Shown here: piece after piece, positions 3,123-48,038 of the stretch | Layout of the letters: every line of letters begins with the position of its first letter | Numbering within the stretch: the stretch's first letter is position 1 | Origin: an uncultured virus (IMG/VR IMGVR_UViG_3300033076_001192) | Lineage: Duplodnaviria > Heunggongvirae > Uroviricota > Caudoviricetes | Reading direction: 5' to 3' (one strand) | DNA: 62,476 nucleotides | IMG/VR virus record: IMGVR_UViG_3300033076_001192 | The notes under the pieces: model-generated | Seen by the model: only the letters and a program-made list of their open reading frames with translations | Told to the model about the DNA's origin: nothing | Databases searched by the model: none | Program-made: the position numbers and the translations under genes

Positions 3123-6100
3123 TATTCAAAAACTGTTTCATCATTTGTTGTTGATTTTAATATAATATTAAATCTACTTTCTTTATCATTTGTCAATCCT
3201 ACAGTAAAACTCTCTCCTGTGAGTCTTTCTAAAACTCTCTTTCCTGTAAATTTTATATTATTAAAATTTAAATTTTTAAATATTTTATTTTCATCCCAAA
3301 GTAAGTTTGGAGTATTACTGTCTTGATTTACAACTCTGTTATAGAAATAATTAATATTTTGTTTTCCGTCTACAGGAGTATACAATATATCTTGACTTTG
3401 TGCATTAGTTTTAGGATAATTTTTTAAATCTTTTAAAGATTTTTGCTCGTTTAGATTTAAAATCCCACTATGTTGATTGTTTGTCCATATAGATAGTTTA
3501 TTAAATCCTATACCTTTCCATTGATTAAAATCCCATTGATTTTGAAATCTCTTAGATTCTATATTTAAAGATAAAGAGTTTAATTGTTTATTTATGTTTT
3601 GGTTTTGTATAGGAAACTCAATAGTAAATGGATTAAGTATTCCTTGAAAAACTTGAAAACTTGTGTTGTTTAAAGGATGTGTCCATAGAGTCCCTTTATC
3701 TGTTCCCCAATTATATCCTACTTGAAAATAGTTATTATAGAAAGGAGAATAATCTGGATAAAATGAAAAATAACTTGTCCAAGAACCTTCTTGTGGTTTA
3801 TAAGAAATTGTCCAACTCACATCTTTGAATAATGTCTTATTATCGAAAAATACTTCTGACTCATTATAGTATAATTTTTTTGTCAAACTATCAAAAGTAA
3901 AATCTTCTTTATTAATACCACTATTTAAAACATAGTCTCTTTTTGTAAAGAATACTCTGTTTCTTCTATCATCATACCATATATTAAAACCTATACCTTT
4001 ATATTTATTATCTACATCTATTTCTGGAAGATGTTTTAATATCTTCATAGGTAAATGTTCTCTAAACCATTGTTTTATATTAACTGGTTTACCTTGTATT
4101 GATTCTGAAATTATCTCTACTTGTTTTCCATTTTGGTCTACTTGAAAAATTTTACCTCTCTTAGCATCTACCCAAAAATGACCAAATGGTGTTGAACAAA
4201 TATCAGAATGTTGTGTTCCCATGTAACCTAAATCTGTTACTTTGAATTCTAAAGGTCTTTGTGCAAAAATTCCTGCTGTTCCTAATTCCTTATTTTGAGG
4301 AGTTATTCTTTCAGCCAAAGAATCAATAGCATTATGCAACACAAGTTGATTTTCAAATCTAGCCAAAAATTGCGCACTTTCAATATCTTTTAAATCGATT
4401 AATTTACCAAATTTATTTCCAAACTCATAAAAGTTTAAAGGTTTGTAAACTCTCCAAGGGTCTGTTAGACTATTATTGTTATTATCCATTTCAGAATAAA
4501 TAACTAAATTATCTTGTTTTAATCTTTTTTTCCAGACTTCTTTACTATAAGAATTATCTAAAAACTTGTATGGGGTGTTAGATACAGGAAAAGAGTAAAC
4601 ATTGTTGTAATAAAAAGAATTCGGTTCTTTTATACTTAGGTTTTTCTCTTGTGTCCATGAAACTACATCCCCCACTTGAGGGTAGAAATTATCTTTTAAT
4701 TCTTTTTTTGCGTATCTAAAATTACAATTTATTTCACTTTCTACTAAAAAATCTGTTATACCATAATAGTATAAATACATCTTAGCGTTAGGTTTAACAT
4801 AGAAAGTAGAGCTATTATTTTTACAATCAAAGTTATATGTGCTATCAATGTCTGGAAATGGTATTAATAGTCCATTGTAATCTGTATCTACTTTATAATC
4901 ACAGTAAAATCTAGGATACCCTACGTTATTATATGGGGAATAGTTGAATGGAAGTTTATCTGCCAATCCCATAGCAGTGGTTGAAAAAATAGGTATTTTT
5001 CTTTTCCATGTAAATCGAGATATCACAACAGTTCCTCCTAAAATAGAATTACAAGATGGATAGTCATTTACTTTAAAAATATGATTTGTAGTCAACCATT
5101 TTATAGAATCTATTGTGCCCCATTGGTCAGGTATATAATTTTTTAAAGTCATGTAAGGACTACCCACATTTCTTTGTGTTTCAAAATTTAATAAGCATCC
5201 GTTTTGACTAGCTATTGTTTTACTACCATTAGATGAAGATATTAAATTATTATCATAATTTCTATATTGATTATCATAATTAAAATAATAATTTCCTAAA
5301 GAAATAAATGTAGAATACTCTCTTAAAGTATTATTAATAAATAGTTTTTGACCATTATTTTCATCTCGTACTTGGTAACTACCATCTTTTAAATATTTTT
5401 TTGTAGATATACCTCTTATATATTCTTTAGTGTCTGTATTAGGTAAAAAATAGTTATGTTTTCCTACAGATATTCCATAGTTGGCAAAATTATATGATGA
5501 ACCTAAATTTTCAAATATTTTTAACCATTCATATCTGTATTGACCTATTTTCATAAATCCTTGAGTAGCAGTTGCTGCAATATAAACCGCTATAGCTCCT
5601 GCTGAAACAGCTACTCCTGGAGCACTAGAACCTGAAGAAGTTCCAACAGTAATCCATAAATTACCTGTACCTCCTTGTGTTATGAATTCTGCTGTTTTTA
5701 TTGTTACTTCTAGCCCAAATTCAGCTAAAGCTAAAGTTGTTGCTAGATTTCTAGCTTTTCTTCCAAGTATAGTCCATTTTGGATGGTCTTCTACTTCTAC
5801 AAATTTGGTTATAGAATTACCTAACTGATACCCAGATAATATAACCTCATTCGGTATTGTAGGTTTTGTTAATAATAAATCTGGTGAAATAAAAGAAAAA
5901 TAGTTATTTTTTTTAGAACCGTAAGGGTGTGTTATCAAACTTGTTCTTGACGAGTCTGTACAATGTAATACATCTGCACCTAAGTCGTTGTGTGGATAGT
6001 TTGAATATAAGTATTTGTTACCTTTGTTAAAATATTGATACATATCATAACCTAATCCACTAGCTATTATACTTTTATGTACAGTATTGTCTCCTCTTAA

Positions 6101-28513: not shown

Positions 28514-31327
28514 TTAGTTTTTATTTAGTGTACTCACTTTTTCTTGTACATCTAAAGCTCTCTCTCTTATTAACATTTCTTTAGCTTTTTGATTTATTTT
28601 TGCTAACTCTATTTTTCTTCTTTCGGCATCATCTGTTTGTTTTCTTACATTGTCTTGATACTTCAAATCAATATTTTGTTGTGCCTGGTTATTAGTTAAA
28701 GCTTGTTGTGTTTCTTGATTTATTCTATCAAATATTTCTAAATCTGTAACTTTTTTATCAGCAGCTCTTCCATAAGCGTTGATTTCTGCTGTTTGTATAT
28801 CTCCCTTATTTTTTAATATTTGTATGTCTAACTCATGTTTTTTGTTTCTGACATCTTTATCTGCTTCAGCTTTTAAAAGTTTGTCATTTTCTTGGGATTG
28901 GAATTTTCTATCTTCTTGTATATTCTTTTCTTTTCTAGCTCTCATATCTAAAGTAGCTTGTTTCAACTCTAAAATTACAGGATTTGTCATAATATCTATT
29001 ATATCTGCAAAATCCTTTTCTAGGGTATTATCATTCATCACTATCTGTCTGATAGCTTCAACAATTTTTCTATCTTTAGTATTTGTCACTGGTAATATGG
29101 AAAGTTTTCTTAATGGGAATAATTCTCCATCTTCTGCTAATATATCTATAAAAGATATTTCACCATCTCCTTTTCTTATAAGTCTAGTGTTTTCTTTTTT
29201 ATTAGTTTCACAATACTGTGCTATCGCAATATGAAGTTCATTTGACTTTGCTTTTGCAGTATTGAATTTTTCTATTACAGAATTCAACAAAGCAAAAGAT
29301 GCACTAGCTCCTTGTTGTACGCCTTCTGCTGTTATATATTTTGAAGGTTGTCCTAATAATTGAGGAGTTATTCCGATTTGACTGAAAGCTTCTTGCTTAT
29401 AATATTCAGCCATCTCTCTTCTATATTGAACTTGGGAGGCAAAAATAACCTCTTGTCTTTGAAATACATTAGGATAAGTTGGGTTATTTTGGGTATTTTG
29501 TCTAGATAAATCTAATCCTAATAAAGCTGTACTTTTTATAGCTTCTCTAGCATTTAATAAAGTTTCTTCTGTTGATTCATCTTGATATTCTGAAGGTAAT
29601 CCTGTAATATCAAAAGTAAAGAAAACACCAAGTTCTTTTTCTAATAACTCTGTATTTTGATTCATACAGATATTATGTAATTGTTGGTAAGGAAGTATTT
29701 TTGTTATTAAACTATTAGATATTATTCCTCCAATTGGAATTCTAACTTGATAAAAATCACTATCTCCTTTTATCTGATAATCTAAAGGTTCAACTTTTAA
29801 ATATAAATCTTCTTTAATTGTAGAAGCATTATTTTTTATTTTTATTCCGTGCCATATTTCTGGCACATAATGATAGCTTATTGTATTTCTAAAAGTTTCT
29901 AATTCTCCTTTTTCTAAAGATTTTTGTAACTTATCAATAGAAAGATTTTTATTTACTTTTATATCATTTTCTTCTAAAAACTCTGGTAATAATTCATCTG
30001 TAGTTATTTCTAACTCTAATTGTCCTTGTTCATTTTCATAAATCAAAATACCTATTCTTTTCATAGAACGCCAATAAACTTCCATGACTCTTATAGTATC
30101 TTGTCTTACATCGATATCTTCTCTAAGGTATGCGGAATAATAACCTGAATTAAATGGAGTAAATTCATTTTCCATTCTAGGCATCCAATGTTTATCAATA
30201 GAACCGTCTTGATTCATTGTTCTTCCTAAAGGTACTCCTAAAGCAGCCTCCATTTGAAGATTTATCTCGTGGTCAAGGTAATTATGGAATGGTGTAACCA
30301 CTTGTTTAGGAAAGATATTATCTATAAATGTTCCTGTACTAGAAATATCTCCGTTTTTATAGTTTGAGGATTGATTCCAATAGTTTCCTATTTTTTCCTG
30401 CTCACTTGTAGTCATTAAATGACCATATCTTTGTAAGATTTGAGAAATAGACATAGTAGTTATTCTACCTACATAATCTAAATCTTGTGGATATTCACAA
30501 TCTACATCTTGAGAGAAAAATACTTCCTCTGGTAACCATCTTTCTATATCGTAGTAGTCAAACCCAACTTTATAATGTCTAAAAAATCTTCCTGTTAATA
30601 TATAATCTGTAAGTGCTTTTCTATCTTCTTGATGTAAGTTAAATCTTTTTTTATCTGAATCTAAAACATTATTTGCCCATTCAGTGGCTAATACTTTAAA
30701 ATTTTTAGAAAGATTTTTCTCTATTTCTGAAGGAGTTAGTGCTTTTACTTGCGCATCTAATTCTGCTAAATATTGTTGTTTTTCCTCCTCAGATTGAAAC
30801 TCTTTTTGATTAGGGTTAATACCTTTTGAAATTAACATTCTATCAATTTCTGCTTTAAAAACAGCTTGAGCATAAGAATGTAATTTTTCTGTTCTTTGTC
30901 TTATATATTCATTTGTAGAATATTCGTCAAAACTTTCTACTCTATATAAGTCCTCCATATCATCGTAAACACCTACTATAGCGTTTACAATAATTCCTAT
31001 AAAATCAAAATGTTTTATATAAGTTGGTATACCTACATTTTGTCTTAAAAGTCTAACTTGTTTGTCAAACCAAGGTAAACCCATAGGGTTATCTTCTATA
31101 TCCACTGCTTTGTAAGTGAATTCTCCTTGGGTCATTTTTCTTGCGTCGGCAAAAATATAGTTTTTCTCTAATTGGCGAATACCCTCAGTTTCTAAAGCAT
31201 CTATAGTAGCTTTTTTCCAACCATCTCCTTTTTTACTTATAGGTAACGTCTGTCTAGGAATAGCTCTAGAAGTAGTAGCTCCTCCATTTATTCTATTAAA
31301 AAATTGATATTCGTGATTATTAGACAT
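28514..31327 (-). CDS. Portal protein
   Basis: 937 aa; PRQTLP..KK...W start, EVYWRSMKRIG, EIWHGIKI, PYQQLHNI, GITPQLLG as in crassvirus portals. Confidence 0.85.
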   Translation of the reverse strand: MSNNHEYQFFNRINGGATTSRAIPRQTLPISKKGDGWKKATIDALETEGIRQLEKNYIFADARKMTQGEFTYKAVDIEDNPMGLPWFDKQVRLLRQNVGIPTYIKHFDFIGIIVNAIVGVYDDMEDLYRVESFDEYSTNEYIRQRTEKLHSYAQAVFKAEIDRMLISKGINPNQKEFQSEEEKQQYLAELDAQVKALTPSEIEKNLSKNFKVLATEWANNVLDSDKKRFNLHQEDRKALTDYILTGRFFRHYKVGFDYYDIERWLPEEVFFSQDVDCEYPQDLDYVGRITTMSISQILQRYGHLMTTSEQEKIGNYWNQSSNYKNGDISSTGTFIDNIFPKQVVTPFHNYLDHEINLQMEAALGVPLGRTMNQDGSIDKHWMPRMENEFTPFNSGYYSAYLREDIDVRQDTIRVMEVYWRSMKRIGILIYENEQGQLELEITTDELLPEFLEENDIKVNKNLSIDKLQKSLEKGELETFRNTISYHYVPEIWHGIKIKNNASTIKEDLYLKVEPLDYQIKGDSDFYQVRIPIGGIISNSLITKILPYQQLHNICMNQNTELLEKELGVFFTFDITGLPSEYQDESTEETLLNAREAIKSTALLGLDLSRQNTQNNPTYPNVFQRQEVIFASQVQYRREMAEYYKQEAFSQIGITPQLLGQPSKYITAEGVQQGASASFALLNSVIEKFNTAKAKSNELHIAIAQYCETNKKENTRLIRKGDGEISFIDILAEDGELFPLRKLSILPVTNTKDRKIVEAIRQIVMNDNTLEKDFADIIDIMTNPVILELKQATLDMRARKEKNIQEDRKFQSQENDKLLKAEADKDVRNKKHELDIQILKNKGDIQTAEINAYGRAADKKVTDLEIFDRINQETQQALTNNQAQQNIDLKYQDNVRKQTDDAERRKIELAKINQKAKEMLIRERALDVQEKVSTLNKN

Positions 31328-31402: not shown

Positions 31403-34141
31403 TTACCTTCTTCTGTTTGTATAAAAACTTCTTTGTCTACCATTATTGTAAAAATTTAATTTTCTAGTTTCTTTGGGTTTTGGTTGTTCTTCATTGTTTG
31501 TTCTCCTATAATTAACTTTAGGATATATGTAGTTTTTTTCTAATACATGTATTAATCCTATAGCTCCTATATTTCCAGATATTCTATCAAAGTTTCCTGA
31601 TTCGGAGAAATTTATTATCTCTGTTAATAACCAAATATCGTCTATAGTTTGAACTCGTTTTACCATTACTTTTTCTCCTATATCATTCTCAATTTCTACA
31701 TTTTCATTTAAATAAGAAGCATACATAGATATTAGTTTTCTTTTTGATTGTTTTGGAGTAAACCCATACTTTCTTGCATCTCCTTGCGAAAACTGAAGTG
31801 CCGTGTTAAAATCAATATGTTTTTCTAAATAAGTATCTTCTAAATGTTTATTTTCTAAATACGTCTGAAATACCGCTAAATCTTCATTTTCTGGAAATAA
31901 TTTTGCATTATAATATTCTAATAAGATTAAAACTTTATCATTAAATTTTTTATAAGTTGAAGGTCTAGCAGAATAAGAAGCTACTAACTTTTTACCACTT
32001 TTATCCCCGAATAATGGAAACTTATATATAGACACTGTCCCAACAGAATCTGTAGTAGTGGTGGTTTCTTGTTTATAAAAATCGGCACTCGCTACATAGT
32101 AATACATTGGGGCTTTTTCCATATCGGGTTCTTCTATAATCAAGAAGGGGGCGTCTTGGTTTCCTAGATTAAATGGGAACTCTATAAGAGGTTTTGTAGA
32201 TATTTCACTAATAATTTTACCATTTGAATCTTTTATCAAATCTCTTCTTCTATCCCATTTACCTGTTTCTAGTAAATATTCTTTGTGTTTTTTAGCTTCT
32301 TCATAAGGAAATGGATTTATTTCATTACTTAAAAAACATTCCTCTGGAGATATAGGATATTGTACAATTCTTTGCTGTAATAATAAATTATCTCCTTCTG
32401 CTTCTTTTCTCCACGCTAATAACTTATCTAAATTACCTTTCCAGTCTGTAACCTGTATGATATTTTTATTTAACTCATCTGCGTTTTCTATACCTAGAAA
32501 ATCACCTAATTTTTTCTCTATTTTTATAAAGCCTTCTTTATATGCCATTTGACCTGGTACAAATAAAGAAAAATTTCTTGGTTTCCATGAAATAGCTTCT
32601 GGGTCAACCCATTCATTTAAAGAATCCCAATCCATTGATACAAGATTATATTTTTGAGGATTAGTTAAAACTGTCATTGCATCATTTGATAACGAAGCTT
32701 CACCAGCAGTTCCTGCCAATAGTGGGACACATTTAAATCCATAAGGTGTTTCAAAAGATGGAAGTGCTGCTAAATAAGATTTTAAAAAGTTATACTTTCC
32801 AATCTCATCGTTTATAAAAGCAGACGGAGCTCCACCAGCGGTTTTTTGAGTGGCATTTTTAGCTCCAGAAGCTAAGTTTTTAACTTTTATTATCGAGTAA
32901 GGTATAGGGTTTGACGCATCCTCTTTCAAGCCTAATATTGTATCTCCACCATCCCATTCTTGCTTTATAAACTCTAACTTAAAGGCTGGTGGCATATAAG
33001 ACATTGAAGTTTTAATTTTACTAGTTAAATCTGTTAAGTCTCCTTCATTACCTCCTGTTATAGTTGCAACAGAATTAAACTTAGTAAAAGCTTTCCATTG
33101 TGCGTATGAAGCAAGAATTACAGATTTAGTAAATCTTCTAGTTCCGTAAAATAATAATCCTTTGTCTTTTGCATCTTCTGCCTTTTTTAAACTATTAACA
33201 AAAAATAACTCATTATCTCTTAAATACGGATTTATAGTAGGTTCTGAACCGTCTGGTTGTGGTATAGGTGTTTTAAATATATTTAAATGCCAGTATAACC
33301 AAGGATGTATCCAATAACCATTTATATTTAATCCTTTAGTTATCTTTAGCATTTCTTCTTGCCAAAACTGTAACACACTTGTATCTTGTTCAAAAAAATG
33401 TTTTCTGTGATTCCAAACTGGAATATCCTTTTGCTTCATATTTTTCAACATTTCAGTTGAACTGAATACATCCCATGTTACATTTAACTTTTCAGTGATT
33501 ATAGAAACATCAGGTATTCGTAAACTGATTGGCTCTTTCATTAAAAGAGAAGATTTTTGGTCTTTATAAAGTTTTAATTCAAAATTATCTATATTATTAG
33601 ATATATTCAATTTTGATAATTTATTTTGAATATCAATTTTTTTATTAAAAACTTCGTCTTGGAAAACTATTTCTTGTCCATTTGATTCTGTCTCTTCTTC
33701 TGTTAATGCTTCTTTTGTAAGTACATCTGTATTATATCTCAGATATTCAGACATTTTTTTTAAGTGTATGTTGATTATATCTACAGTAAAATCAATAAAA
33801 TCTTGTGTTTTACTTAAATTTCTATCTCCCGATGCTTCTGTTATAAAATCAGAGAGTCTTCCTAAAATAGATGTAGTTAATTTATTTTCTTGTTCAAAAA
33901 GAGCTTTTTTTGTTTTACTACTAAATTCTAAATAGTTTTTTATGTTTTTTTCAATTTCTTTTATTGTTTTTTCTTTATCCTTTGTATTACTATTTTGTGC
34001 CTCCAATATTCTCTCAGAGAAAGATTTTAACTTATCTTTATGATTTTTAGTGTCGTTCCAATTATTATTTTCTATAATTACTTTATTTCTTAAAAAATAC
34101 TCTTTATGGTCTTTTATAAAATTATCAACGTATTTACTCAC
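31403..34141 (-). CDS. terL: Terminase large subunit with N-terminal extension
   Basis: Deviant Walker A (GTRRFTKS), Walker B (FINDEIGK), GTAG coupling motif, RNase H-like domain (ASADFY, FPENE, GNFDRI). Confidence 0.85.
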   Translation of the reverse strand: MSKYVDNFIKDHKEYFLRNKVIIENNNWNDTKNHKDKLKSFSERILEAQNSNTKDKEKTIKEIEKNIKNYLEFSSKTKKALFEQENKLTTSILGRLSDFITEASGDRNLSKTQDFIDFTVDIINIHLKKMSEYLRYNTDVLTKEALTEEETESNGQEIVFQDEVFNKKIDIQNKLSKLNISNNIDNFELKLYKDQKSSLLMKEPISLRIPDVSIITEKLNVTWDVFSSTEMLKNMKQKDIPVWNHRKHFFEQDTSVLQFWQEEMLKITKGLNINGYWIHPWLYWHLNIFKTPIPQPDGSEPTINPYLRDNELFFVNSLKKAEDAKDKGLLFYGTRRFTKSVILASYAQWKAFTKFNSVATITGGNEGDLTDLTSKIKTSMSYMPPAFKLEFIKQEWDGGDTILGLKEDASNPIPYSIIKVKNLASGAKNATQKTAGGAPSAFINDEIGKYNFLKSYLAALPSFETPYGFKCVPLLAGTAGEASLSNDAMTVLTNPQKYNLVSMDWDSLNEWVDPEAISWKPRNFSLFVPGQMAYKEGFIKIEKKLGDFLGIENADELNKNIIQVTDWKGNLDKLLAWRKEAEGDNLLLQQRIVQYPISPEECFLSNEINPFPYEEAKKHKEYLLETGKWDRRRDLIKDSNGKIISEISTKPLIEFPFNLGNQDAPFLIIEEPDMEKAPMYYYVASADFYKQETTTTTDSVGTVSIYKFPLFGDKSGKKLVASYSARPSTYKKFNDKVLILLEYYNAKLFPENEDLAVFQTYLENKHLEDTYLEKHIDFNTALQFSQGDARKYGFTPKQSKRKLISMYASYLNENVEIENDIGEKVMVKRVQTIDDIWLLTEIINFSESGNFDRISGNIGAIGLIHVLEKNYIYPKVNYRRTNNEEQPKPKETRKLNFYNNGRQRSFYTNRRR

Positions 34142-36487: not shown

Positions 36488-36767
36488 TTATTTTTTTATA
36501 ACTTAATCTAATTAATATGTTTCTTATTATTTGATATACCTCTCTGTAAAAAAGACTTTGTGTGTTATATTCTTCTTCTACTTCAAAAGTTTTACAATCT
36601 ACAAATAATACTTTTAAAAAATCTTTTTTATATTTTACAAGTATTAAATAGTAATTATTATCCTTTAAAACTAAATAATTTTTATCATTTCTTATTACGT
36701 CTATGTTATAAGTATCCGACATAATTAAAAGATACTCAACTAACTTTTTTAAAAAACGTTTTTCCAT
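36480..36767 (-). CDS. Hypothetical protein
   Basis: First ORF after the minus-strand promoter. Confidence 0.55.
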   Translation of the reverse strand: MEKRFLKKLVEYLLIMSDTYNIDVIRNDKNYLVLKDNNYYLILVKYKKDFLKVLFVDCKTFEVEEEYNTQSLFYREVYQIIRNILIRLSYKKINE

Positions 36768-36775
36768 TTACAGTG

Positions 36776-36867
36776 CAAAGATATAAACAATATTTCAAAA
36801 AAGCAAAACATTTAACTAATATTTAACTTTATATATTTGTATAATTAAATTATTCTTTTTATTTTTG
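36776..36867. promoter_or_regulatory. Divergent Bacteroidota sigma-70 promoters at the strand switch
   Basis: Minus: TTTG-N20-TATCTTTG (36807-36776). Plus: TTTG-N20-TATTTTTG (36836-36867). Confidence 0.75.
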
Positions 36868-36878
36868 CAAAAAAAGTT

Positions 36879-37118
36879 ATGGAAAATAATAAATTAGGTA
36901 TTATAGAGTATCAAGAAGTTGTCATAGATAATATCTCTACTCTTATTTTAAATAAAGATTATATAGAAGAAAATAAAGATTTTTTTGATAATGTTCTTTA
37001 TAAAATGTATGAAATATATATAAATGACGTTAATGATTCGATATCTATACGTAAACAAGCTCAGTTTTTAGAAATATTTTTAGGTATGAATTTTAAATTT
37101 AAACTTTCAGATTATTAA
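36879..37118 (+). CDS. Hypothetical protein
   Basis: ORF directly after the promoter. Confidence 0.6.
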   Translation: MENNKLGIIEYQEVVIDNISTLILNKDYIEENKDFFDNVLYKMYEIYINDVNDSISIRKQAQFLEIFLGMNFKFKLSDY

Positions 37119-37133
37119 AGTTTTCTTAATAAG

Positions 37134-37165
37134 TTTGTATATTTAAAATAATTGTTTTATATTTG
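37134..37165 (+). promoter_or_regulatory. Sigma-70 promoter driving RNA island 1
   Basis: TTTG-N20-TATATTTG. Confidence 0.75.
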
Positions 37166-37171
37166 CACTAT

Positions 37172-37280
37172 AATACTGTTGAGTAGACTTTATAAATAGT
37201 TGGAAAACTATACTAAAAACGGTGATAGTCCGATAAGTCGTGGTAATAGAATTACTAATCTGCTTAGTTCCAACAGTATT
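37172..37280 (+). ncRNA. Putative ~110-nt structured RNA
   Basis: 10-bp terminal stem AATACTGTTG/CAACAGTATT with internal hairpins; starts at the expected TSS. Confidence 0.55.
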
Positions 37281-37288
37281 TTTTATAT

Positions 37289-37326
37289 TGCGCGGTAGAG
37301 CAGAGGTAGCTTGCGGGGCTCATAAT
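37289..37326 (+). pseudogene. 5' half of initiator tRNA-fMet(CAT), interrupted
   Basis: TGCGCGG-TA-GAGC-AGAGGTA-GCTT-G-CGGGG-CTCATAA with initiator hallmarks; no contiguous 3' half. Confidence 0.75.
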
Positions 37327-37339
37327 AATAAATAGTATT

Positions 37340-37768
37340 TTGAAAAAATGTAATTTTTGTTTAATTGAAAAACCCTTAGATAGATTTTCTAAAAAGAAAT
37401 CTTGTATAGATGGTTTTAATACAAAATGTAAAGATTGCCATAATAAATATAATAGAGAAATTTGGTATATTAAAAATAGAGACAAACAAAAAATGTCTTC
37501 TGTTAATTGGAAAATAGATAATAAAGATAGGATAAAAGCTACTAAATATGGAGTTACACCTGAAGATATAGTAGAATTTAGAATTTTACAAAATGATAAA
37601 TGTGCTATATGTTTAGCAGAAAATTTTACAGAAAATATAGACCATTGTCACAAAAAAGGTAACGTTAGAGGAATTCTATGTGGTAATTGTAATAAAGGTC
37701 TAGGTTTATTTAAAGATAATATTGAATATCTTTTAAATGCAATAAACTATTTAAATAATAACAACTAA
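37340..37768 (+). CDS. Endonuclease VII-like HNH homing endonuclease
   Basis: KYG, Q..KCAIC, IDHCHKKGNVRGILCGNCNKGLGLFKD; N-terminal Zn finger. Confidence 0.85.
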   Translation: MKKCNFCLIEKPLDRFSKKKSCIDGFNTKCKDCHNKYNREIWYIKNRDKQKMSSVNWKIDNKDRIKATKYGVTPEDIVEFRILQNDKCAICLAENFTENIDHCHKKGNVRGILCGNCNKGLGLFKDNIEYLLNAINYLNNNN

Positions 37769-37769
37769 G

Positions 37770-38085
37770 TTCATCCCGCATTTGCAGGAAGGAAATCGTG
37801 AATCGCAATATGCGTTTTGTGTAAATTTAAAAAGAGTCCCCTCATATACAGGTGCTAGAATACACTCAGGATGAGTAAGGTTATTTTAACTTTAGAATTG
37901 TAGGTTAACAATCCGTCCCTTATAATTCATTTAGCTTTTATAGTGGACGTTAAAAAAGACATATCGGAGTTTAAAAGTAGAAGTAGGAAGCTATGATTAA
38001 AACTAAAAAATAAACGCTTAAAAAAGCCTTTAAAACTGACAGCATCTTCCTACATAGTGCTGTTTTTGTTTTTTAGGCTTTTTAC
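37770..38085 (+). ncRNA. Putative structured RNA/leader upstream of the polymerase-like gene
   Basis: Stems TTCATCC/GGATGAG, CGCAT-TTGC/GCAA-ATGCG, CGTCC-TTATAA/TTATAG-GGACG; long hairpin 38021-38083. Confidence 0.45.
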
Positions 38086-38092
38086 TTTTATA

Positions 38093-39436
38093 ATGACTAA
38101 AATAATAAATACTTTTGTAACATTACCTCCAAAATTAATAGAGGATTTTGAAAAAATTCCGTTTTCTAAAATAGAACGTAATTACGCTCTAAAATTTATA
38201 GACAACTTAATGAAAAGGTCTTTTAGAGAGTATGGCATGATTGATGGTTTTGTTGAAACTCCTAAGAATTATTTTAGAAAGGTTTTTAACTCTCAATATC
38301 TTATTTGGTTAAATAAATTAATTGACGCAAAAATTATCATTTCTAATCTATCTTATTCTAACTCTATCTCTAATATATATTCTAAATCCTATTCTATAAA
38401 TACTAAATACACATCTATCCCTATTATGTGGCTCACTTTTGATGAAAACCCTTTAAAATCAATACCTTACACTTTCAAAATTAGCAAAGAAACAGAAGAT
38501 GAGAAATTAGACCTTCAAAGAGTAGTTGAAGATTTAAATGTTATAAAAGTAGATAGAAAAGTATTAATGCAGTTAGCTTCAAACGAAATAGAAAAAGTTA
38601 AAATAGAGGATTTTAAAACTAATGAGTTTGTAACAAGGGAGAGTTTTAATGTGTCTTTTGGGGGAGATAAAAAATATTGGATGTCAAGACAAAAAGCTAT
38701 TCAGAAAAGTGTAGAGTTAAATAAAACACTAATACAAGATGACAATAAGTTTTATATTATTGATGAGTATGAATTTATACTAAGAAAAAAGACAGCTATG
38801 GTTCAATCTTATCAAGACGCTATAAATAAACTGATAAATAAAAAATTCTATGGTAAAAGAAATTCTACAAATAGTAGGTTAGATACTAATCTTACTAATA
38901 TGGCTAAAGTACTTACAAAAGAAGTATGTATTAAAAATAATTTTGTTCAGTTTGATTTGTGTAATTCACAGTTCGCTATTTTATCTGACCTGTTAGAAAA
39001 TAAATTATCCACTGATGATTTTTTACATTTTAAAACACACTCTTATAATGGAACTCTTTATGAGTATATAATGCAAGAATTGAAATTAGAAACAAGATTA
39101 GAGGCTAAAAAAATGATGTTTGAATTAATGTTTTCAAAAGAGGAATATAGAAGTGGATTAAAAGATAAATTAAAATCTATATTTCCGTCTGTAGTTGAAG
39201 TTGTAGATAATTATAAAAAAGAAAATGGGTATAATAAATTTTCAATAAGTTTGCAACAAAGAGAGTCTGAAATTTTTATCGACGGTTTATGGAAACAAAT
39301 AAAGAAAAAGAAAATATTTTGCACCCCTAAACATGACTGTCTAATAGTTAAAGAAAAGGATGCAACTAAGGTAGAAAATATTATAAAAAAGTATTTTGAA
39401 AAAATCAATTTTAAAGGTAAAATAATTAGAGAATAA
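38093..39436 (+). CDS. Compact family-A-polymerase-like protein (no visible exonuclease domain)
   Basis: RLDTNLTNM, motif A FDLCNSQFAIL, motif B R.EAKKMMF, LQQRES, motif C HDCLIV. ATG 38093 preferred to GTG 38057. Confidence 0.6.
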   Translation: MTKIINTFVTLPPKLIEDFEKIPFSKIERNYALKFIDNLMKRSFREYGMIDGFVETPKNYFRKVFNSQYLIWLNKLIDAKIIISNLSYSNSISNIYSKSYSINTKYTSIPIMWLTFDENPLKSIPYTFKISKETEDEKLDLQRVVEDLNVIKVDRKVLMQLASNEIEKVKIEDFKTNEFVTRESFNVSFGGDKKYWMSRQKAIQKSVELNKTLIQDDNKFYIIDEYEFILRKKTAMVQSYQDAINKLINKKFYGKRNSTNSRLDTNLTNMAKVLTKEVCIKNNFVQFDLCNSQFAILSDLLENKLSTDDFLHFKTHSYNGTLYEYIMQELKLETRLEAKKMMFELMFSKEEYRSGLKDKLKSIFPSVVEVVDNYKKENGYNKFSISLQQRESEIFIDGLWKQIKKKKIFCTPKHDCLIVKEKDATKVENIIKKYFEKINFKGKIIRE

Positions 39437-39484: not shown

Positions 39485-39655
39485 ATGGAAGAAAAAATAT
39501 ATCCTTTATATTACAAAGGAAAGTTTTGGACTGAAGAAGAAGTTGATGATATATTTAAATCTTTTTACTTTACAAAACTAGCTTTAGATTATCGGACATC
39601 TGTTTATGTAGGAGATGGTCTTAGAAGAACTCCCGATGGGGAATGGGTTGAATAA
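39485..39655 (+). CDS. Small hypothetical protein
   Basis: In-frame ATG (MEEKIYP) downstream of the promoter. Confidence 0.55.
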   Translation: MEEKIYPLYYKGKFWTEEEVDDIFKSFYFTKLALDYRTSVYVGDGLRRTPDGEWVE

Positions 39656-39662
39656 AAAAATT

Positions 39663-41093
39663 ATGAGTTATACATTAAGACCAAGACAAAAAATTGCAGT
39701 AGATAAAATAGACAGTTTTATTACAAATTCAAAAAATAATCATGGGATATTTGTTTACCCTACAAGTTTTGGAAAGTCACTTGTAATTGCTAATATTGCA
39801 TCAAAGTATCCTGAAAAATATTTTATAAATGTTACAAACAGTAAAGAGCTTTTGAAACAGAATTATGAGAAATACACTTCTTATGGATTTGAAGCTAATA
39901 TATGTTCTGCATCTTTGGGGGAAGTTGGAGTCGGAAAAGTAACTTTTGCAACGATAGGTACTGTAGTTAAATTTGTAGACTTCTTTAAGGATAAAGATGT
40001 AATTATATTAGATGATGAGTGTCAAGAAGGAAGTGCTTTAGGTTCACAATTACACAGTTTTGTAAAACAATTAAAAAATTACAAATTAGTTGGAGTAACA
40101 GCAACACCTTTTAGATTATCTCAAGGAATGGAAGGTACATCATTAAAAATGATGAATAGAGATAGAAAATGTATTTATAAATCTATTGAAGATGTTGTAC
40201 AAATTTCAGAAGTAGTTGAACAAAGCTATTGGTCAAAAATTATATATGATGTAAAAAATGTCGACGAAGACGATTTAAAACTTAACACTTCAGGTACAGA
40301 ATTTACAGATGAGTCAGTTCAAAAGTTTAAAGAAGTTAATGATATTAACAATAGACTTATAGAAGAAATTCAGGATTTAATTAGTAAAGGTAGAAAATCA
40401 ATTTTAGTATCAGTTCCTTTTATATCAGATGCACAAGAAATTTCATCAAAATTAGACGTTTGTAAGGCTGTTTACAGTGGTATGGACACAAAGGATAGAG
40501 ATAAGATAATTAATGACTTTAAATCGTTAAAATTAAAAGTAGTTGTTCAGTGTAGAATTTTATCTGTTGGGTTTGACCACCCTGAATTAGATGCTATTAT
40601 TATGGCTAAACCCACAAACTCTTTAACTTTTTATTATCAGTATTTAGGTCGCGGAGTTAGAGTACACCCTAGTAAAAAAAATTGTGTAGTTGTAGATTTA
40701 AGTGGTAATTTTAGAAGATTTGGTAAAATTGAAACATTAAGTATAGAAAATAGTGACTTAACTAAAGGTTGGGCAGTATTTAATGAAGATATGCTTTTAA
40801 GTAATTACCCTTTAAATACAAATAACAGACCTACAAAGAAAAGTCTTTTAGCTAAATTAAAAAGAGAGCAAGATAAAACAAGTCTAAATGAAGAAGACGC
40901 GTTATTTTATTTTGGAAAATATAAAGATAAAAAAGTGTCGGATGTAATGAAGGAAAATAAATCTTACCTCACATGGCTTTTAGACCAAAAAGATTTTAAT
41001 TGGTATGGAGAAAATGGAAGAAAGTTAAAACAAAGTATTCAAAAACAATTAGGGGTATTTTTGAACAAGAAGAAAAAGAATATACTAAAATAG
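39663..41093 (+). CDS. Superfamily 2 helicase (RadD/UvsW-like)
   Basis: LRPRQ, PTSFGKS, DECQ, TATPFR, GFDHPELD, QYLGRGVR; C-terminal FGKYK domain. Confidence 0.9.
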   Translation: MSYTLRPRQKIAVDKIDSFITNSKNNHGIFVYPTSFGKSLVIANIASKYPEKYFINVTNSKELLKQNYEKYTSYGFEANICSASLGEVGVGKVTFATIGTVVKFVDFFKDKDVIILDDECQEGSALGSQLHSFVKQLKNYKLVGVTATPFRLSQGMEGTSLKMMNRDRKCIYKSIEDVVQISEVVEQSYWSKIIYDVKNVDEDDLKLNTSGTEFTDESVQKFKEVNDINNRLIEEIQDLISKGRKSILVSVPFISDAQEISSKLDVCKAVYSGMDTKDRDKIINDFKSLKLKVVVQCRILSVGFDHPELDAIIMAKPTNSLTFYYQYLGRGVRVHPSKKNCVVVDLSGNFRRFGKIETLSIENSDLTKGWAVFNEDMLLSNYPLNTNNRPTKKSLLAKLKREQDKTSLNEEDALFYFGKYKDKKVSDVMKENKSYLTWLLDQKDFNWYGENGRKLKQSIQKQLGVFLNKKKKNILK

Positions 41094-44881: not shown

Positions 44882-45115
44882 ATGGAGAACATTAATACAA
44901 TAAAGTTTTTTATATTCATTATAATATTATTTTCAATTATTACTGCAATTTTAATAAATAGCTTAGTAGCTGGTTATAAATTAAAAGAGCAAAAATTGAC
45001 CCTTATAATAGATGAAATACTTAAAGAAAATCACGAATTAAAAGTATATAAAGCTAAAAAAGAATTCAGTGCTAAAACAATCAATAAACTAAAAAATGCA
45101 ACCAAAGAAAAGTAA
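44882..45115 (+). CDS. Small membrane protein
   Basis: N-terminal TM helix. Confidence 0.55.
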   Translation: MENINTIKFFIFIIILFSIITAILINSLVAGYKLKEQKLTLIIDEILKENHELKVYKAKKEFSAKTINKLKNATKEK

Positions 45116-45509
45116 AACTGAAAAAGCAATATGGACTTATCAAGGCAAAAAAGATTTTGAAGTCCCTGAATCAGCAATAGGGTTTGTATATAGAATAGAT
45201 GTAATTGGAACTCCTTTTTATTACTATGGAAAAAAGAATTTAACTTCTACTCGTGGGCGGGGGAAAAAGAAAGTAACAAAAGAATCAACTTGGAGAACTT
45301 ACGAATCCTCATCTAAAGAGATTAAAGAACTTATAAAGGCGGGTAAAAAAATAAAAAAAGAGATACTTGAATTTGCATATAGTAAAAGTGAATTAACACT
45401 TTTAGAAACAAAATACATAGTCTGTAATAACTGCATAGAAGATGAGAACTCTTTGAACAGATGGATTTATTGCAGGGTATATCAGAAACATGTTTTAGCA
45501 GGAAAATAA
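45096..45509 (+). CDS. GIY-YIG family nuclease
   Basis: GFVYRI...YYYGKK, WRTYESS, KEIL..., LE, N.WI. Confidence 0.7.
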   Translation: MQPKKSKTEKAIWTYQGKKDFEVPESAIGFVYRIDVIGTPFYYYGKKNLTSTRGRGKKKVTKESTWRTYESSSKEIKELIKAGKKIKKEILEFAYSKSELTLLETKYIVCNNCIEDENSLNRWIYCRVYQKHVLAGK

Positions 45510-46287: not shown

Positions 46288-46941
46288 ATGGTTTATTTTG
46301 TAAAAGCAGGGGATTATATAAAAATAGGATATAGTAAAAATGAAAAAGCTTTTAAAACAAGATTATCTTCTTATAAAACAAGTTGTCCATTTGAAGTTGA
46401 AGTATTAGGTACTTTAGATGGCGGAGTTGAAGAAGAAAGGAATATAATGAATTATTTTATAAAATTTCACACAAGGGGTGAGTGGTTCAATTACGATGAG
46501 AGTATTGAAAATTTTGCAAAGAACCCTTACGAAATACCAAAATCTAATTACTTAAAACCTCTACACAGCACAAATAAAAAAGTAGATGAAAACATAGAGG
46601 AAATATTAAAACTATACAAGGAGGGAGTATCATTAAGAGTTATAGAAGATATTTTTAAAATAAGTAGAAAAAGATTAACAAAGTATATACCTGACGACCT
46701 AAGAAGGGCTAAGAATGAGTGGTTTAGATTAAGAAGACAGGAGACAAATCCAAAAAATATTCCTATAATTTGTATAACAACAGGAGAGAAGTTTATAAGT
46801 ACTGCTGAAGCAAGTAGAAAATTAGGAGTGACTCATGGTTGTATATGGAGAGTTTTAAATGGTAAAAGAGCTCATACTAAAGGATTAGTTTTTATGTACT
46901 ATAGTGATTTTTTAGAAAAAGAAGAAAATAATCCAAAATAA
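46288..46941 (+). CDS. GIY-YIG (T5orf172-like) homing endonuclease with NUMOD1-like HTH
   Basis: VYF...IKIGYS, RL..., RGEWF; C-terminal F.S..EASRKLG...I...L.GKR..TKG..F.Y. Confidence 0.8.
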   Translation: MVYFVKAGDYIKIGYSKNEKAFKTRLSSYKTSCPFEVEVLGTLDGGVEEERNIMNYFIKFHTRGEWFNYDESIENFAKNPYEIPKSNYLKPLHSTNKKVDENIEEILKLYKEGVSLRVIEDIFKISRKRLTKYIPDDLRRAKNEWFRLRRQETNPKNIPIICITTGEKFISTAEASRKLGVTHGCIWRVLNGKRAHTKGLVFMYYSDFLEKEENNPK

Positions 46942-46942
46942 A

Positions 46943-46974
46943 TTTGCATAATTAAAAAATAGTTTGTATATTTG
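46943..46974 (+). promoter_or_regulatory. Sigma-70 promoter driving RNA island 2
   Basis: TTTG-N20-TATATTTG. Confidence 0.75.
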
Positions 46975-47107
46975 CAGAAGAAATAAGAAGAGAACTATTA
47001 AATACACCTTAGTTGGTAGTAAATAGTAAACGTCATACTTCTTATTTTTTCTGTTTATTTAACTTTTTGGCGGAAAATAATTAAATCAAAGATTTACAGA
47101 AGGAAAA

Positions 47108-47301
47108 GCGGGCTTATCTACGATTGTAGCTTTAAAAGGGAGTAGAGGGTTTAATTAATTAACGGTTAAACAACCCTTAGAATAGTATTCTTTGGCTGAC
47201 CTCTATTGCGTGTGTAACAGTGCGTGTTAAAGGAGGTTTATTAAAATGTGTTGCTTTAAAAGTGCGTCAAAGAAAGATTAGATAGTAACGTAAGATACCG
47301 C
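47108..47301 (+). ncRNA. Putative ~195-nt multi-stem RNA
   Basis: Closing stem GCGG..TATCT.ACG/CGT.AGATA.CCGC; inner stems TTCTTTGGC/GTCAAAGAA and ACCTCT/GGAGGT. Confidence 0.5.
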
Positions 47302-47392
47302 CTGATACAACACAAAATAAAAGGTGCTACTCGCTGTCGATATTCGGCAGTATTAGGATTGTAGTTAAATGGTAGTTCATTTAGCCTTTGGT

Positions 47393-47520
47393 TAGGTTTG
47401 TTGGCGAGTATTCCGTTCGATTCGGGTTAGTTTGGAACTGTGTGGTTCGAGTCCACGTTAAAAAAGTTGGCATCAAATAGGAAGATATTCCGCTCAGAGG
47501 TTCGACTCCTCTAAACCTAC
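47393..47520 (+). ncRNA. tRNA-like RNA with three T-loop hairpins
   Basis: Acceptor-like TAGGTTT/AAACCTA, canonical T-arm AGAGG-TTCGACT-CCTCT, and two further GTTCGA hairpins. Confidence 0.55.
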
Positions 47521-47600
47521 AAAATATAGTTGTAACAAATGCCTGTACTAAAATGTGCACTAAAAATCAGGGATGTGTCGGTAATGACGTACCATAAAGA

Positions 47601-47674
47601 GGTTCTTTAGCTCAGTTGGTTAGAGCATCTGACTCATAATCAGAAGGTCACAGGTTCAAGACCTGTAAGAACCA
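47601..47674 (+). tRNA. tRNA with CAT anticodon (elongator Met or Ile2)
   Basis: Full cloverleaf GGTTCTT/AAGAACC, GCTC/GAGC, TCTGA-CTCATAA-TCAGA, ACAGG-TTCAAGA-CCTGT; CCA not encoded. Confidence 0.93.
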
Positions 47675-47825
47675 CAACATTCACTTGATTCTCTTATAGT
47701 AAAGTGAAGGACATCGGAGTCAAGAGAGCTCTCGGATGGAGCGTCATGCTACGAAAAGCATGTGAGGGTACGGAAGAGCAGACGTGTATACCAAGTGCAA
47801 CCCCTCATTTTTAAATTATTAAATT

Positions 47826-48038
47826 ATGATGAACTTTTATTATGACCCTGTCTTAGGACTACGGTACGATTCTTTAGGAGAATTATTTATTATTGATTTA
47901 GATTGCATTCCTCAAGATATTAAATTTGATACAGAATATTGGATAAAGTATATTAAACAAACTAGTGTTCAAATAGTAAAACCTTTCTCTGAGTCATGTG
48001 TACAAATTGTCGGACAAATAACACAATATAAATTATGA
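47826..48038 (+). CDS. Hypothetical protein
   Basis: ORF track. Confidence 0.55.
   Translation: MMNFYYDPVLGLRYDSLGELFIIDLDCIPQDIKFDTEYWIKYIKQTSVQIVKPFSESCVQIVGQITQYKL

What the first reader, a model, noticed from the sequence alone, without database searches (positions are those of the whole stretch)
37285..37811. Initiator tRNA split at the anticodon loop by a homing endonuclease, with a decayed 3' half
Seen: 37289-37325 is a near-perfect 5' half of tRNA-fMet (A11:U24 pair, G29-G30-G31, CT-CAT-AA loop). It breaks off into the EndoVII ORF 14 nt later. Just after the ORF stop comes TCAT-CCCG (37771-37778): TCAT repeats the anticodon-loop sequence and TCCCG can complete the anticodon stem. Next is GCAGG-aaggaaat-CGTGA, resembling a ruined T-arm, then CGCAATAT (37804-37811), complementary to ATATTGCG (37285-37292) at the acceptor end. 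Inference: an endonuclease invaded a tRNA gene. The well-kept 5' half against a degenerate 3' half suggests it is retained as a processing signal, decoy, primer or splicing exon.
Basis: partly seen in the sequence, partly recalled or inferred. Interest (0 to 1): 0.7.

Follow-up and report, generated by a model that had tools for sequence, protein, structure and literature searches.

The report
Nuclease gene splitting a phage tRNA
A selfish nuclease gene sits in the middle of a phage's methionine tRNA gene with no intron to splice it out, so the tRNA is most likely dead; it shows how such genes invade RNA genes.

Summary
37289-37325 is a complete 5' half (positions 1-38) of a phage-type tRNA-Met(CAU). 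A 448-bp cassette follows: 14 nt, an intact EndoVII/HNH ORF (37340-37768), then 5 nt. Next comes a 35-nt stretch in exact tRNA register. It keeps the anticodon-stem strand (TCCCG, 37774-78) and the acceptor end (CGCAA, 37804-08). This in-register pairing occurs once in 124,872 window positions. The 25 nt between them show no T-arm and no similarity to intact tRNAs.

I found no group I ribozyme, no bulge-helix-bulge motif and no tRNA call, even after joining the halves in silico.

The closest homologues of the nuclease in annotated phages lie in tRNA arrays. In Vequintavirinae they sit 14-16 nt after a tRNA-Met(CAU).

Two related phages lack the nuclease at this slot. One has an intact tRNA-Leu there; the other has no tRNA.

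Best reading (about 0.7): a free-standing homing endonuclease of a tRNA-associated lineage inserted into the anticodon loop and killed a dispensable phage tRNA.

Earlier notes of this scan describe similar nuclease cassettes splitting tRNA genes on other DNA. Unlike those, this cassette carries no replacement tRNA.

This is a new variant of a known kind, of moderate interest.

The parts
37134..37165 (+). Bacteroidota-type promoter motif (TTTG, spacer, TAnnTTTG) that would drive the whole non-coding unit and the nuclease gene
   Evidence: The pattern has 17 matches in the window against 5.4 expected; 0 of 100 shuffles reach 17. It is 85-88% identical to the motif ahead of the L001 tRNA unit and to window 46943-46976. 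The consensus itself is recalled, and activity is untested.
37289..37325 (+). 5' half of a phage-type tRNA-Met(CAU), positions 1-38, structurally intact
   Evidence: Read directly. It is 30-32 of 37 identical to 7 intact tRNA-Met genes found with a pattern derived from it. GC is 59.5% against 28.4% for the window.
37326..37773 (+). 448-bp inserted cassette (equally 37325-37772; the junction is ambiguous between positions 37/38 and 38/39): 14 nt, the ORF, 5 nt
   Evidence: Removing it restores the stem-loop CGGGG-CTCATAA-TCCCG. There is no target-site duplication and no terminal hairpin by eye.
37340..37768 (+). EndoVII-type HNH homing endonuclease gene, 142 aa, TTG start
   Evidence: Pfam PF02945 at E 2.1e-20; PHROG 2633 at E 1.8e-32. 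All 24 invariant columns are kept, including both Cys pairs, D101, H102, H104 and N118. GC is 22.4%.
37774..37778 (+). Retained 3' strand of the anticodon stem (positions 39-43, TCCCG)
   Evidence: Pairs with 37314-37318. The same pentamer stands at this position in 4 of the 7 intact tRNAs (L008, L009, L018, L019). The register test found it unique in the window.
37779..37803 (+). 25 nt in the place of the variable loop, the T-arm and positions 66-68: no T-arm, unrecognisable
   Evidence: No stem pairing (direct reading). Global alignment to four intact 3' halves gives p 0.36-0.82, best-of-four p 0.65. No similar sequence elsewhere in the window or in any locus held at that point (L001-L024).
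37804..37808 (+). Retained acceptor 3' end (positions 69-72 plus discriminator A73, CGCAA)
   Evidence: Pairs with 37289-37292 in register. Pairing continues outward to 8 bp, 37285-92 with 37804-11.
37888..38075 (+). Conserved non-coding RNA module downstream of the tRNA slot, ending in a nested hairpin and a T-run; context, not part of the tRNA
   Evidence: 75-79% identical to L001 4249-4457 in two blocks. The motif is shared with L002. The helix 37983-90 with 38046-53 varies in step in L001 and L002. No Rfam family matches.

Best explanation
A free-standing homing endonuclease gene (EndoVII/HNH type) has inserted as a compact 448-bp cassette into the anticodon loop of a phage-encoded tRNA-Met(CAU) gene, next to position 38. 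It belongs to a lineage that lives in phage tRNA gene arrays.

Nothing in the insert can splice it out, so the tRNA is a dead gene. The intact 5' half now serves only as the leader of the nuclease mRNA. That mRNA would be transcribed from the promoter of the tRNA/non-coding RNA unit.

The nuclease presumably cuts nuclease-free alleles (an intact tRNA-Met gene) in co-infecting relatives, and is then copied in by repair.

The uneven state of the 3' half is best explained by two events and little elapsed time: the insertion, and a local overwriting of the T-arm segment. The overwriting may have been favoured because it removes the enzyme's own recognition site.

Shown: the anatomy, the intact catalytic motifs, the absence of a ribozyme, the tRNA-array habitat of the homologues, and the absence of the gene in two relatives.

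Inferred: homing activity, the target, the lack of splicing, and the timing.
For: - Exact restoration of the anticodon stem-loop on removing 448 bp, and a 3' remnant in register that is unique among 124,872 positions.
- Only 19 non-coding bases in the insert, and no Rfam group I hit at E up to 10. For comparison, the tRNA-fMet intron of Synechocystis is 655 nt with a 150-aa ORF (PMC1995217, passages).
- The nuclease is intact.
- I looked at 8 homologue loci. Four lie within 160 nt downstream of a tRNA on the same strand: APT65 (45% identity) 21 nt after tRNA-Asp, KpS8 and LNA4 (43%) 14 and 16 nt after tRNA-Met(CAT), and Persimmon 160 nt after tRNA-Thr.
- In Vequintavirinae the gene is present or absent among close relatives, and the nuclease-free phages carry a differently spelled tRNA-Met at that spot.
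- 2 of 2 close relatives of this phage lack the nuclease at the slot; one has an intact tRNA-Leu there.
- The window holds two more free-standing endonuclease genes and other tRNA-like wrecks.
- The tRNA type occurs in 7 viral or metagenome loci and in 0 of 185,579 species genomes.
Against: - No nuclease-free intact tRNA-Met allele was found at this slot (0 of 2 relatives), so the insertion is inferred from one sequence.
- Uniform neutral decay does not predict 10 of 10 flanking bases kept beside 25 unrecognisable ones. The two-event account is ad hoc.
- The kept segments are exactly the ones that pair with the 5' half, which is also what selection on an RNA fold would give.
- Four of the 8 homologue loci have no tRNA nearby (phiM6 and three IMG/VR loci). 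KpS8 and LNA4 are related phages, so the tRNA-Met link rests on one independent case plus this one.
- Enzyme activity and target are untested.
Confidence: 0.7

Rival explanations
1. The split tRNA-like shape is kept by selection. In the transcript, the acceptor helix (8 bp) and the anticodon helix (7 bp) would clamp the ends of the nuclease mRNA into a T-arm-less tRNA-like fold. That fold would limit translation, stabilise the mRNA or direct its processing; or the 5' half would act as a tRNA-half RNA.
For: The only parts of the 3' half that survive are the two strands that pair with the 5' half, and they are in exact register. The segment between them is unrecognisable. The 5' half has no visible defect. 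ARAGORN's metazoan-mitochondrial mode accepts the joined sequence as an armless tRNA-Met in 2 of 3 junction variants.
Against: The MFE and centroid folds of 37270-37830 do not contain the long-range helices, and the fold is no more stable than shuffles (z -0.87; 20 of 100 shuffles fold as well). A local hairpin (CGCA-ATA-TGCG, 37804-14) competes for the acceptor strand. There is no relative in which to test covariation. RNase P and RNase Z recognise the acceptor/T-arm stack, which is missing here (recalled knowledge).
Confidence: 0.12
2. The layout came from rearrangement of a tRNA-Met-plus-nuclease unit rather than a plain insertion. The starting unit could be like that of Vequintavirinae, or like the cassettes with a replacement tRNA noted earlier in this scan. 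Deletions later removed the replacement tRNA or moved the gene.
For: In KpS8 and LNA4 the homologue follows a complete tRNA-Met by 14-16 nt, and that tRNA allele travels with it. Earlier notes of the scan describe nuclease cassettes that carry their own tRNA copy (unchecked leads). The spacer before the ORF is 14 nt here too.
Against: This needs two or more deletions ending exactly at position 38|39 on both sides. A single insertion explains the perfect stem-loop restoration. No second tRNA-Met half or complete copy lies in or beside the cassette. The 14-nt spacers share no sequence.
Confidence: 0.12
3. It is a true intron. The 448 nt would be removed from the pre-tRNA by self-splicing, by a protein endonuclease and ligase at the canonical 37/38 site, or by an unknown route, giving a working tRNA.
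For: The junction is compatible with position 37/38, the canonical site of archaeal and eukaryal tRNA introns (PMC4090602, abstract). Removal restores the anticodon stem-loop.
Against: No ribozyme: 19 non-coding bases and no Rfam hit. A group I 5' exon should end in U36, which would leave a 6-nt loop here (direct reading). The four bases before the 3' junction cannot form the central helix of a bulge-helix-bulge with positions 32-35 (direct reading). The joined product has no T-arm and only 4 in-register acceptor pairs, and ARAGORN's bacterial mode rejects it in 3 of 3 variants. No RNA ligase or splicing endonuclease was found among the 37 ORFs scanned; the rest of the genome was not seen.
Confidence: 0.03
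4. Chance resemblance: the 3' 'remnant', or the whole half-tRNA, is fortuitous sequence next to an ordinary free-standing nuclease gene.
For: ARAGORN and the Rfam tRNA model report neither half. The middle 25 nt look random.
Against: The register test finds 1 site in 124,872 positions, lying 5 nt after the stop codon. The 28-nt pattern from the 5' half hits only tRNA-Met genes, 7 of 7. The half is 59.5% GC in a 28.4% GC genome.
Confidence: 0.02

Closest known systems
Group I intron of the Synechocystis PCC 6803 tRNA-fMet gene with its endonuclease I-Ssp6803I (PMC1995217, passages; Bonocora & Shub 2001, seen only as a title in the reference list of PMC3984707)
   Same: [quoted passage not shown]
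   Different: There a 655-nt self-splicing intron carries the 150-aa ORF and the tRNA works. Here there is no ribozyme (19 non-coding bases), the enzyme family differs (EndoVII/HNH against PD-(D/E)XK), the host is a phage, and the 3' half is wrecked.
Phage T4 SegB and other free-standing endonucleases ('intronless homing') in tRNA gene clusters (PMC2330249, abstract in a search listing; PMC3984707, passages)
   Same: A free-standing nuclease gene lives among phage tRNA genes, is present or absent among relatives, and is co-inherited with flanking tRNA sequence. The homologues of this HNH in APT65, KpS8, LNA4 and Persimmon have that layout.
   Different: SegB is a GIY-YIG enzyme and lies between tRNA genes. 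Here the gene lies inside one and destroys it.
Endonuclease-gene invasion model (Loizos et al., as described in PMC3984707, passages)
   Same: A free-standing endonuclease gene ends up inserted at a site resembling its own cleavage site. The sequences flanking the ORF, when fused, recreate the target.
   Different: That model concerns invasion of an existing intron (T4 sunY), which keeps the host gene alive. Here there is no intron. Cleavage of the fused flanks is untested.
Canonical 37/38 tRNA introns of archaea and eukaryotes, and split tRNA genes (PMC4090602 and PMC4390854, abstracts in a search listing)
   Same: The position of the interruption, and two halves that can pair through the acceptor and anticodon stems.
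   Different: No bulge-helix-bulge motif; bacterial-type (Bacteroidota-like) promoters; no splicing enzymes seen; no T-arm.
Nuclease cassettes that split tRNA genes at the anticodon loop, noted earlier in this scan on other DNA (e1-847111, e1-868582, e1-5046590 and others; unchecked AI notes)
   Same: A small nuclease gene in the anticodon loop of a tRNA gene leaves a 5'-half stump, and relatives of the nuclease sit beside differently spelled tRNA copies.
   Different: Those cassettes are reported to bring a replacement tRNA. No complete tRNA lies in or next to this cassette. This one is in a phage and is of the EndoVII type.

Membership tests
Functional tRNA gene (Rfam RF00005 / cloverleaf) | Acceptor stem, D-arm and anticodon arm with conserved residues | tested here: met
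   The 5' half has all of them. The anticodon stem is restored by 37774-78. The acceptor stem has 4 in-register pairs, or 7 if 37799-37803 are looped out.
Functional tRNA gene (Rfam RF00005 / cloverleaf) | T-arm with the T-loop; detection by tRNA finders | tested here: not met
   37784-37800 cannot pair and lacks the T-loop residues. No ARAGORN or Rfam call on the native sequence. ARAGORN's bacterial mode finds 0 genes in 3 of 3 in-silico joins.
Group I intron in a tRNA anticodon loop | Ribozyme core (P3-P9) within the intervening sequence | tested here: not met
   Only 19 of 448 bases lie outside the ORF. cmscan of 36800-38600 at E up to 10 gives no group I match.
Group I intron in a tRNA anticodon loop | 5' exon ending in U, and a 3' exon that completes a 7-nt loop | tested here: not met
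   Ending the exon at U36 would need AA before TCCCG on the 3' side, and only one A is there. The U rule is recalled.
Archaeal/eukaryal protein-spliced tRNA intron | Position 37/38 | tested here: met
   The junction is compatible with 37/38, and equally with 38/39.
Archaeal/eukaryal protein-spliced tRNA intron | Bulge-helix-bulge at the exon-intron boundaries | tested here: not met
   37767-37770 cannot pair with positions 32-35 (at most one G:U). Read directly.
Free-standing homing endonuclease (intronless homing) | Intact nuclease domain | tested here: met
   PF02945 at E 2e-20. All invariant Cys, Asp, His and Asn columns are kept.
Free-standing homing endonuclease (intronless homing) | Sporadic presence among otherwise syntenic relatives | tested here: met
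   Absent from the slot in L001 and L002, 2 of 2. The Vequintavirinae homologue is present in 10 records at 80% coverage or more, and absent in the 3 partial-coverage records I inspected.
Free-standing homing endonuclease (intronless homing) | Cleaves the nuclease-free allele and is copied in by repair | not testable with these tools
   Needs enzyme assays or phage crosses.
tRNA-splitting nuclease cassette with replacement tRNA (earlier notes of this scan) | The cassette carries or recreates a complete tRNA of the same kind | tested here: not met
   No complete tRNA in 37000-38100. Only 5 nt lie between the stop codon and position 38/39.

The most novel reading that the evidence does not exclude
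The broken tRNA is not junk. The intact 5' half and the two surviving pairing strands would be held by selection because the transcript folds into a T-arm-less tRNA-like clamp around the nuclease mRNA. That would be a new way for a homing endonuclease to borrow a tRNA scaffold, either to control its own expression or processing, or to release a 5' tRNA-half with a role of its own.
Probability: 0.1. Interest if true: 0.7.

Novelty: new variant of a known kind. Interest (0 to 1): 0.4.

Why it matters
Mobile introns in tRNA genes are thought to arise when a free-standing endonuclease gene and a ribozyme come together at one target. This locus shows the endonuclease alone, sitting in a tRNA anticodon loop at the cost of the gene. 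That is possible only because a phage tRNA is dispensable.

A 2014 review notes that all phage introns known then lie in protein genes despite the many phage tRNA genes (PMC3984707, passages). My four literature searches found no description of a phage tRNA gene split by an intron-less endonuclease gene.

The locus also links one HNH lineage to tRNA-Met(CAU) genes in two unrelated phage groups, which gives a concrete target to test.

Finally, it warns annotators that half-tRNAs next to small nuclease genes are scars, not split genes.

Tried and rejected
- Group I intron: cmscan of 36800-38600 at E up to 10 gave only weak, unrelated matches. Gathering-threshold scans of the window, L001 and L002 gave only the two known tRNAs.
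- ARAGORN with introns of 0-600 nt allowed: 0 genes at the default and -ps90 settings. At -ps80 it made one call, a 'tRNA-Leu' lying inside the ORF, which I take to be spurious.
- A 3' half elsewhere in the window: the acceptor complement CCGCGCA is absent from the + strand.
- A donor for the scrambled 25 nt: blastn-short against the window and the loci held at that point (L001-L024) found nothing.
- Closer relatives:
  - The downstream 459-aa protein found none in IMG/VR.
  - The strict 5'-half pattern found 0.
  - Two non-coding-RNA motif scans returned only the contigs of L001 and L002, plus about 47 chance hits.
  - More distant relatives L003-L006 have unrelated tRNAs or none.
Read-level tests for nuclease-free alleles or spliced RNA could therefore not be run.
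- Long-range RNA clamp: not in the MFE or centroid fold, z -0.87.
- A second relic (tRNA-Leu-like) at 37812-37875: one 12-nt local match (p about 0.03), but the global alignment is not significant (p 0.32). Left open.
- The sigma-70 promoter and terminator scan was uninformative: 14 promoter-like sites against 10.5 expected, and 0 terminators.
- PMC3706429 and PMC7589089 were opened for tRNA-interruption leads and proved irrelevant.

Full report
**Setting.** The window is part of a tailed-phage genome.
- A block of minus-strand structural genes (portal 28514-31327, large terminase 31403-34141) ends at 36767. Plus-strand replication genes follow: helicase 39615-41093, a RecA/UvsX-like gene, PhoH, GroEL and ThyX.
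- The finding lies in the gap between these blocks.
- The motif TTTG-N17-22-TANNTTTG, which I recall as the Bacteroidota promoter consensus, occurs 17 times against 5.4 expected (0 of 100 shuffles reach 17). One copy is at 37134-37165, just upstream of the finding.
- No whole genome is held for the window.

**The observation.**
- 37289-37325 reads as positions 1-38 of a tRNA-Met(CAU). All D-arm pairs, U8, A14, G18, G19, A21, A11:U24, G29-G31 and the loop CTCATAA are present.
- A 28-nt pattern taken from it, with two N, found 4 metagenome loci, 3 viral loci and no hit in 185,579 species genomes. ARAGORN calls all 7 hits as intact 73-76-nt tRNA-Met(CAT) genes, and two (L010, L017) sit in arrays of seven tRNA genes within the locus. 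The half therefore belongs to a phage-type tRNA-Met family. It is 30-32 of 37 identical to them, 26 positions being fixed by the pattern.
- U1:A72 would be a normal pair, so 'initiator' is only partly apt.
- The EndoVII ORF starts 14 nt after position 38 and ends at 37768.

**The 3' side.**
- Counting back from A72 = 37807 with standard arm lengths puts A38 at 37773 and TCCCG at positions 39-43. CGCAA falls at positions 69-73.
- I scored every position of the window, on both strands, for the nine in-register pairs to positions 27-31 and 1-4. 33 of 124,872 positions pair fully if G:U is allowed. Only 37774 does so with 8 Watson-Crick pairs; the others have three or more G:U.
- The site lies 5 nt after the stop codon, so the remnant is real.
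- The 25 nt between the two retained pentamers cannot form a T-arm. They align to four intact 3' halves no better than shuffles (p 0.36-0.82; best of four, p 0.65). They have no copy elsewhere in the window or in the loci held at that point.
- If 37799-37803 are looped out, all seven acceptor pairs can form. That extra match is not significant on its own.

**What the insert is.**
- Removing 37326-37773 (or 37325-37772) restores CGGGG-CTCATAA-TCCCG, the same stem-loop as in L008 and L009. The insert is 448 bp: 14 nt, a 429-nt ORF and 5 nt.
- It cannot be a group I intron. cmscan at E up to 10 finds none, and only 19 bases are non-coding. The Synechocystis tRNA-fMet intron has 655 nt for a 150-aa ORF (PMC1995217, passages). 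An exon ending in U36 would also leave a 6-nt loop.
- The four bases before the 3' junction cannot form the central helix of a bulge-helix-bulge (read directly).
- ARAGORN with introns allowed finds nothing credible.
- After in-silico joining, its bacterial mode finds no gene in 3 of 3 junction variants. Only the metazoan-mitochondrial mode calls an armless 68-nt tRNA-Met, in 2 of 3 variants.
- No RNA ligase or splicing endonuclease is among the 37 ORFs scanned against Pfam. The rest of the genome was not seen.

**The nuclease and its relatives.**
- The protein keeps both Cys pairs of the N-terminal zinc finger and the D-H-x-H ... N core, matching all 24 invariant columns.
- tblastn finds 467 phage records. 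The best hit has 45% identity, so there is no close relative. IMG/VR gives 40% at best.
- I inspected 8 homologue loci:

| Phage or locus | Identity | Nearest upstream tRNA (same strand) |
|---|---|---|
| Aeromonas phage APT65 | 45% | 21 nt after tRNA-Asp, inside a 12-tRNA array |
| Klebsiella phage KpS8 | 43% | 14 nt after a tRNA-Met(CAT); the record does not annotate it, ARAGORN finds it |
| Escherichia phage LNA4 | 43% | 16 nt after tRNA-Met(CAT) |
| Streptomyces phage Persimmon | 38% | 160 nt after tRNA-Thr |
| Sinorhizobium phage phiM6 | 39% | none nearby |
| Three IMG/VR loci | 28-40% | none nearby |

- Among the 67 phage records that match the KpS8 region, mostly Vequintavirinae-type phages, 10 cover the gene. 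The three partial matches I opened (Iguana_ER37, KP12, PVP-SE1) lack it. They carry a differently spelled 82-nt gene with a CTCATAA loop at the same place. Two of those records annotate it as tRNA-Met; ARAGORN reads it otherwise.
- That is the usual signature of a free-standing homing endonuclease travelling with its flank. It ties this lineage to tRNA arrays and, in one independent case besides this window, to tRNA-Met(CAU).

**Relatives of the phage.**
- Two IMG/VR contigs have helicases 82-84% identical (L001, L002). Neither has an ORF of 60 aa or more at this slot.
- L001 has a near-identical promoter motif, a longer leader and an intact 75-nt tRNA-Leu(TAG). A non-coding block 75-79% identical to window 37888-38009 follows.
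- L002 comes from a complete 135.9-kb genome. It has the non-coding block but no tRNA.
- The slot is therefore a variable tRNA position inside a promoter-driven non-coding unit. No intact tRNA-Met allele was found.
- More distant relatives (L003-L006) do not help.

**Reading.**
[quoted passage not shown] It matches the endonuclease-gene invasion model described for I-TevII (PMC3984707, passages), but without an intron to protect the host gene.
- The gene has no promoter of its own in its 14-nt leader, so it would be read from the tRNA unit's promoter.
- The tRNA is dead.
- What is not explained by simple decay is the mosaic 3' half. I favour a second, local event that overwrote the T-arm, perhaps selected because it removes the enzyme's own site. 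That part is inference.

**Alternatives.**
- Selection for an RNA clamp around the mRNA cannot be excluded, but it gets no support from folding (z -0.87).
- Rearrangement from a tRNA-plus-nuclease unit is possible but needs more events.

**Earlier notes of this scan.** They describe nuclease cassettes that split tRNA genes at the anticodon loop in at least eight other genomes, usually with a replacement tRNA (unchecked). This case fits the theme but has no replacement tRNA.

**Literature.** Four searches found SegB in the T4 tRNA cluster, the tRNA-fMet intron endonuclease, and the statement that the phage introns known in 2014 are all in protein genes. I found no phage tRNA gene split by an intron-less endonuclease gene. 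Supplements were not consulted.

Noticed in passing
window 37888-38075; L001 4249-4535; L002 about 4800-4990: A conserved non-coding RNA module follows the tRNA slot in all three phages. It contains a shared motif (…TTTAAA(A)GTAGA…) and a long-range helix that changes in step (window 37983-90 with 38046-53). It ends in a nested hairpin with a T-run just before the next gene. It matches no Rfam family, and no further members turned up in IMG/VR.
   Followed up: partly
window 46943-47830: A second promoter-driven non-coding unit. It has three T-arm-like hairpins (47413-25, 47442-56, 47496-512), a weak tRNA-Sec-like match at 47426-47520 (16.7 bits, E 3), the intact tRNA-Met at 47601-47675, and a downstream stretch sharing 'ACATCGGAGT' with the first unit. 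47470-47512 is 77% identical to the 3' part of the L001 tRNA-Leu, so part of this unit looks like a decayed tRNA.
   Followed up: partly
L016 (record of L002, 118913-119034, minus strand): A 122-nt tRNA-like element with an 8-bp acceptor-like helix and two T-arm-like hairpins. It is the only tRNA-model hit (18 bits) in a complete 135.9-kb relative that has no ordinary tRNA.
   Followed up: no
window 45096-45509 and 46288-46941: Two more free-standing endonuclease genes: one SegE-like GIY-YIG, and one GIY-YIG/T5orf172 with an I-HmuI-type NUMOD domain. The second ends directly at the promoter of the second tRNA/non-coding unit.
   Followed up: no
L026 2411-2486 (Klebsiella phage KpS8, MT178275.1): ARAGORN finds a tRNA-Met(CAT) that the record does not annotate, 14 nt upstream of its endonuclease VII gene. 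ARAGORN also calls four more tRNAs in this stretch that the record's feature table omits (14 calls against 9 annotated). Relatives without the nuclease carry a differently spelled 82-nt allele at that place. The tail of the KpS8 nuclease ORF reads into flanking DNA that it shares with two of the three relatives inspected, KP12 and PVP-SE1.
   Followed up: partly
window 37812-37875: Possible relic of a tRNA-Leu like the one in L001. The start resembles its acceptor strand, a 12-nt stretch matches its anticodon arm (11 of 12; p about 0.03), and 37835-37855 resembles its 3' end. The pieces are not collinear, and the global alignment is not significant (p 0.32).
   Followed up: partly
L001 4151-4225: The tRNA-Leu(TAG) of the relative is only 75 nt long and has no long variable arm, which is unusual for a leucine tRNA. 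The class II rule is recalled.
   Followed up: no
window, whole: Bacteroidota-type promoter motifs are enriched (17 against 5.4 expected). They stand before several plus-strand genes and both non-coding units, which suggests a Bacteroidota host.
   Followed up: no
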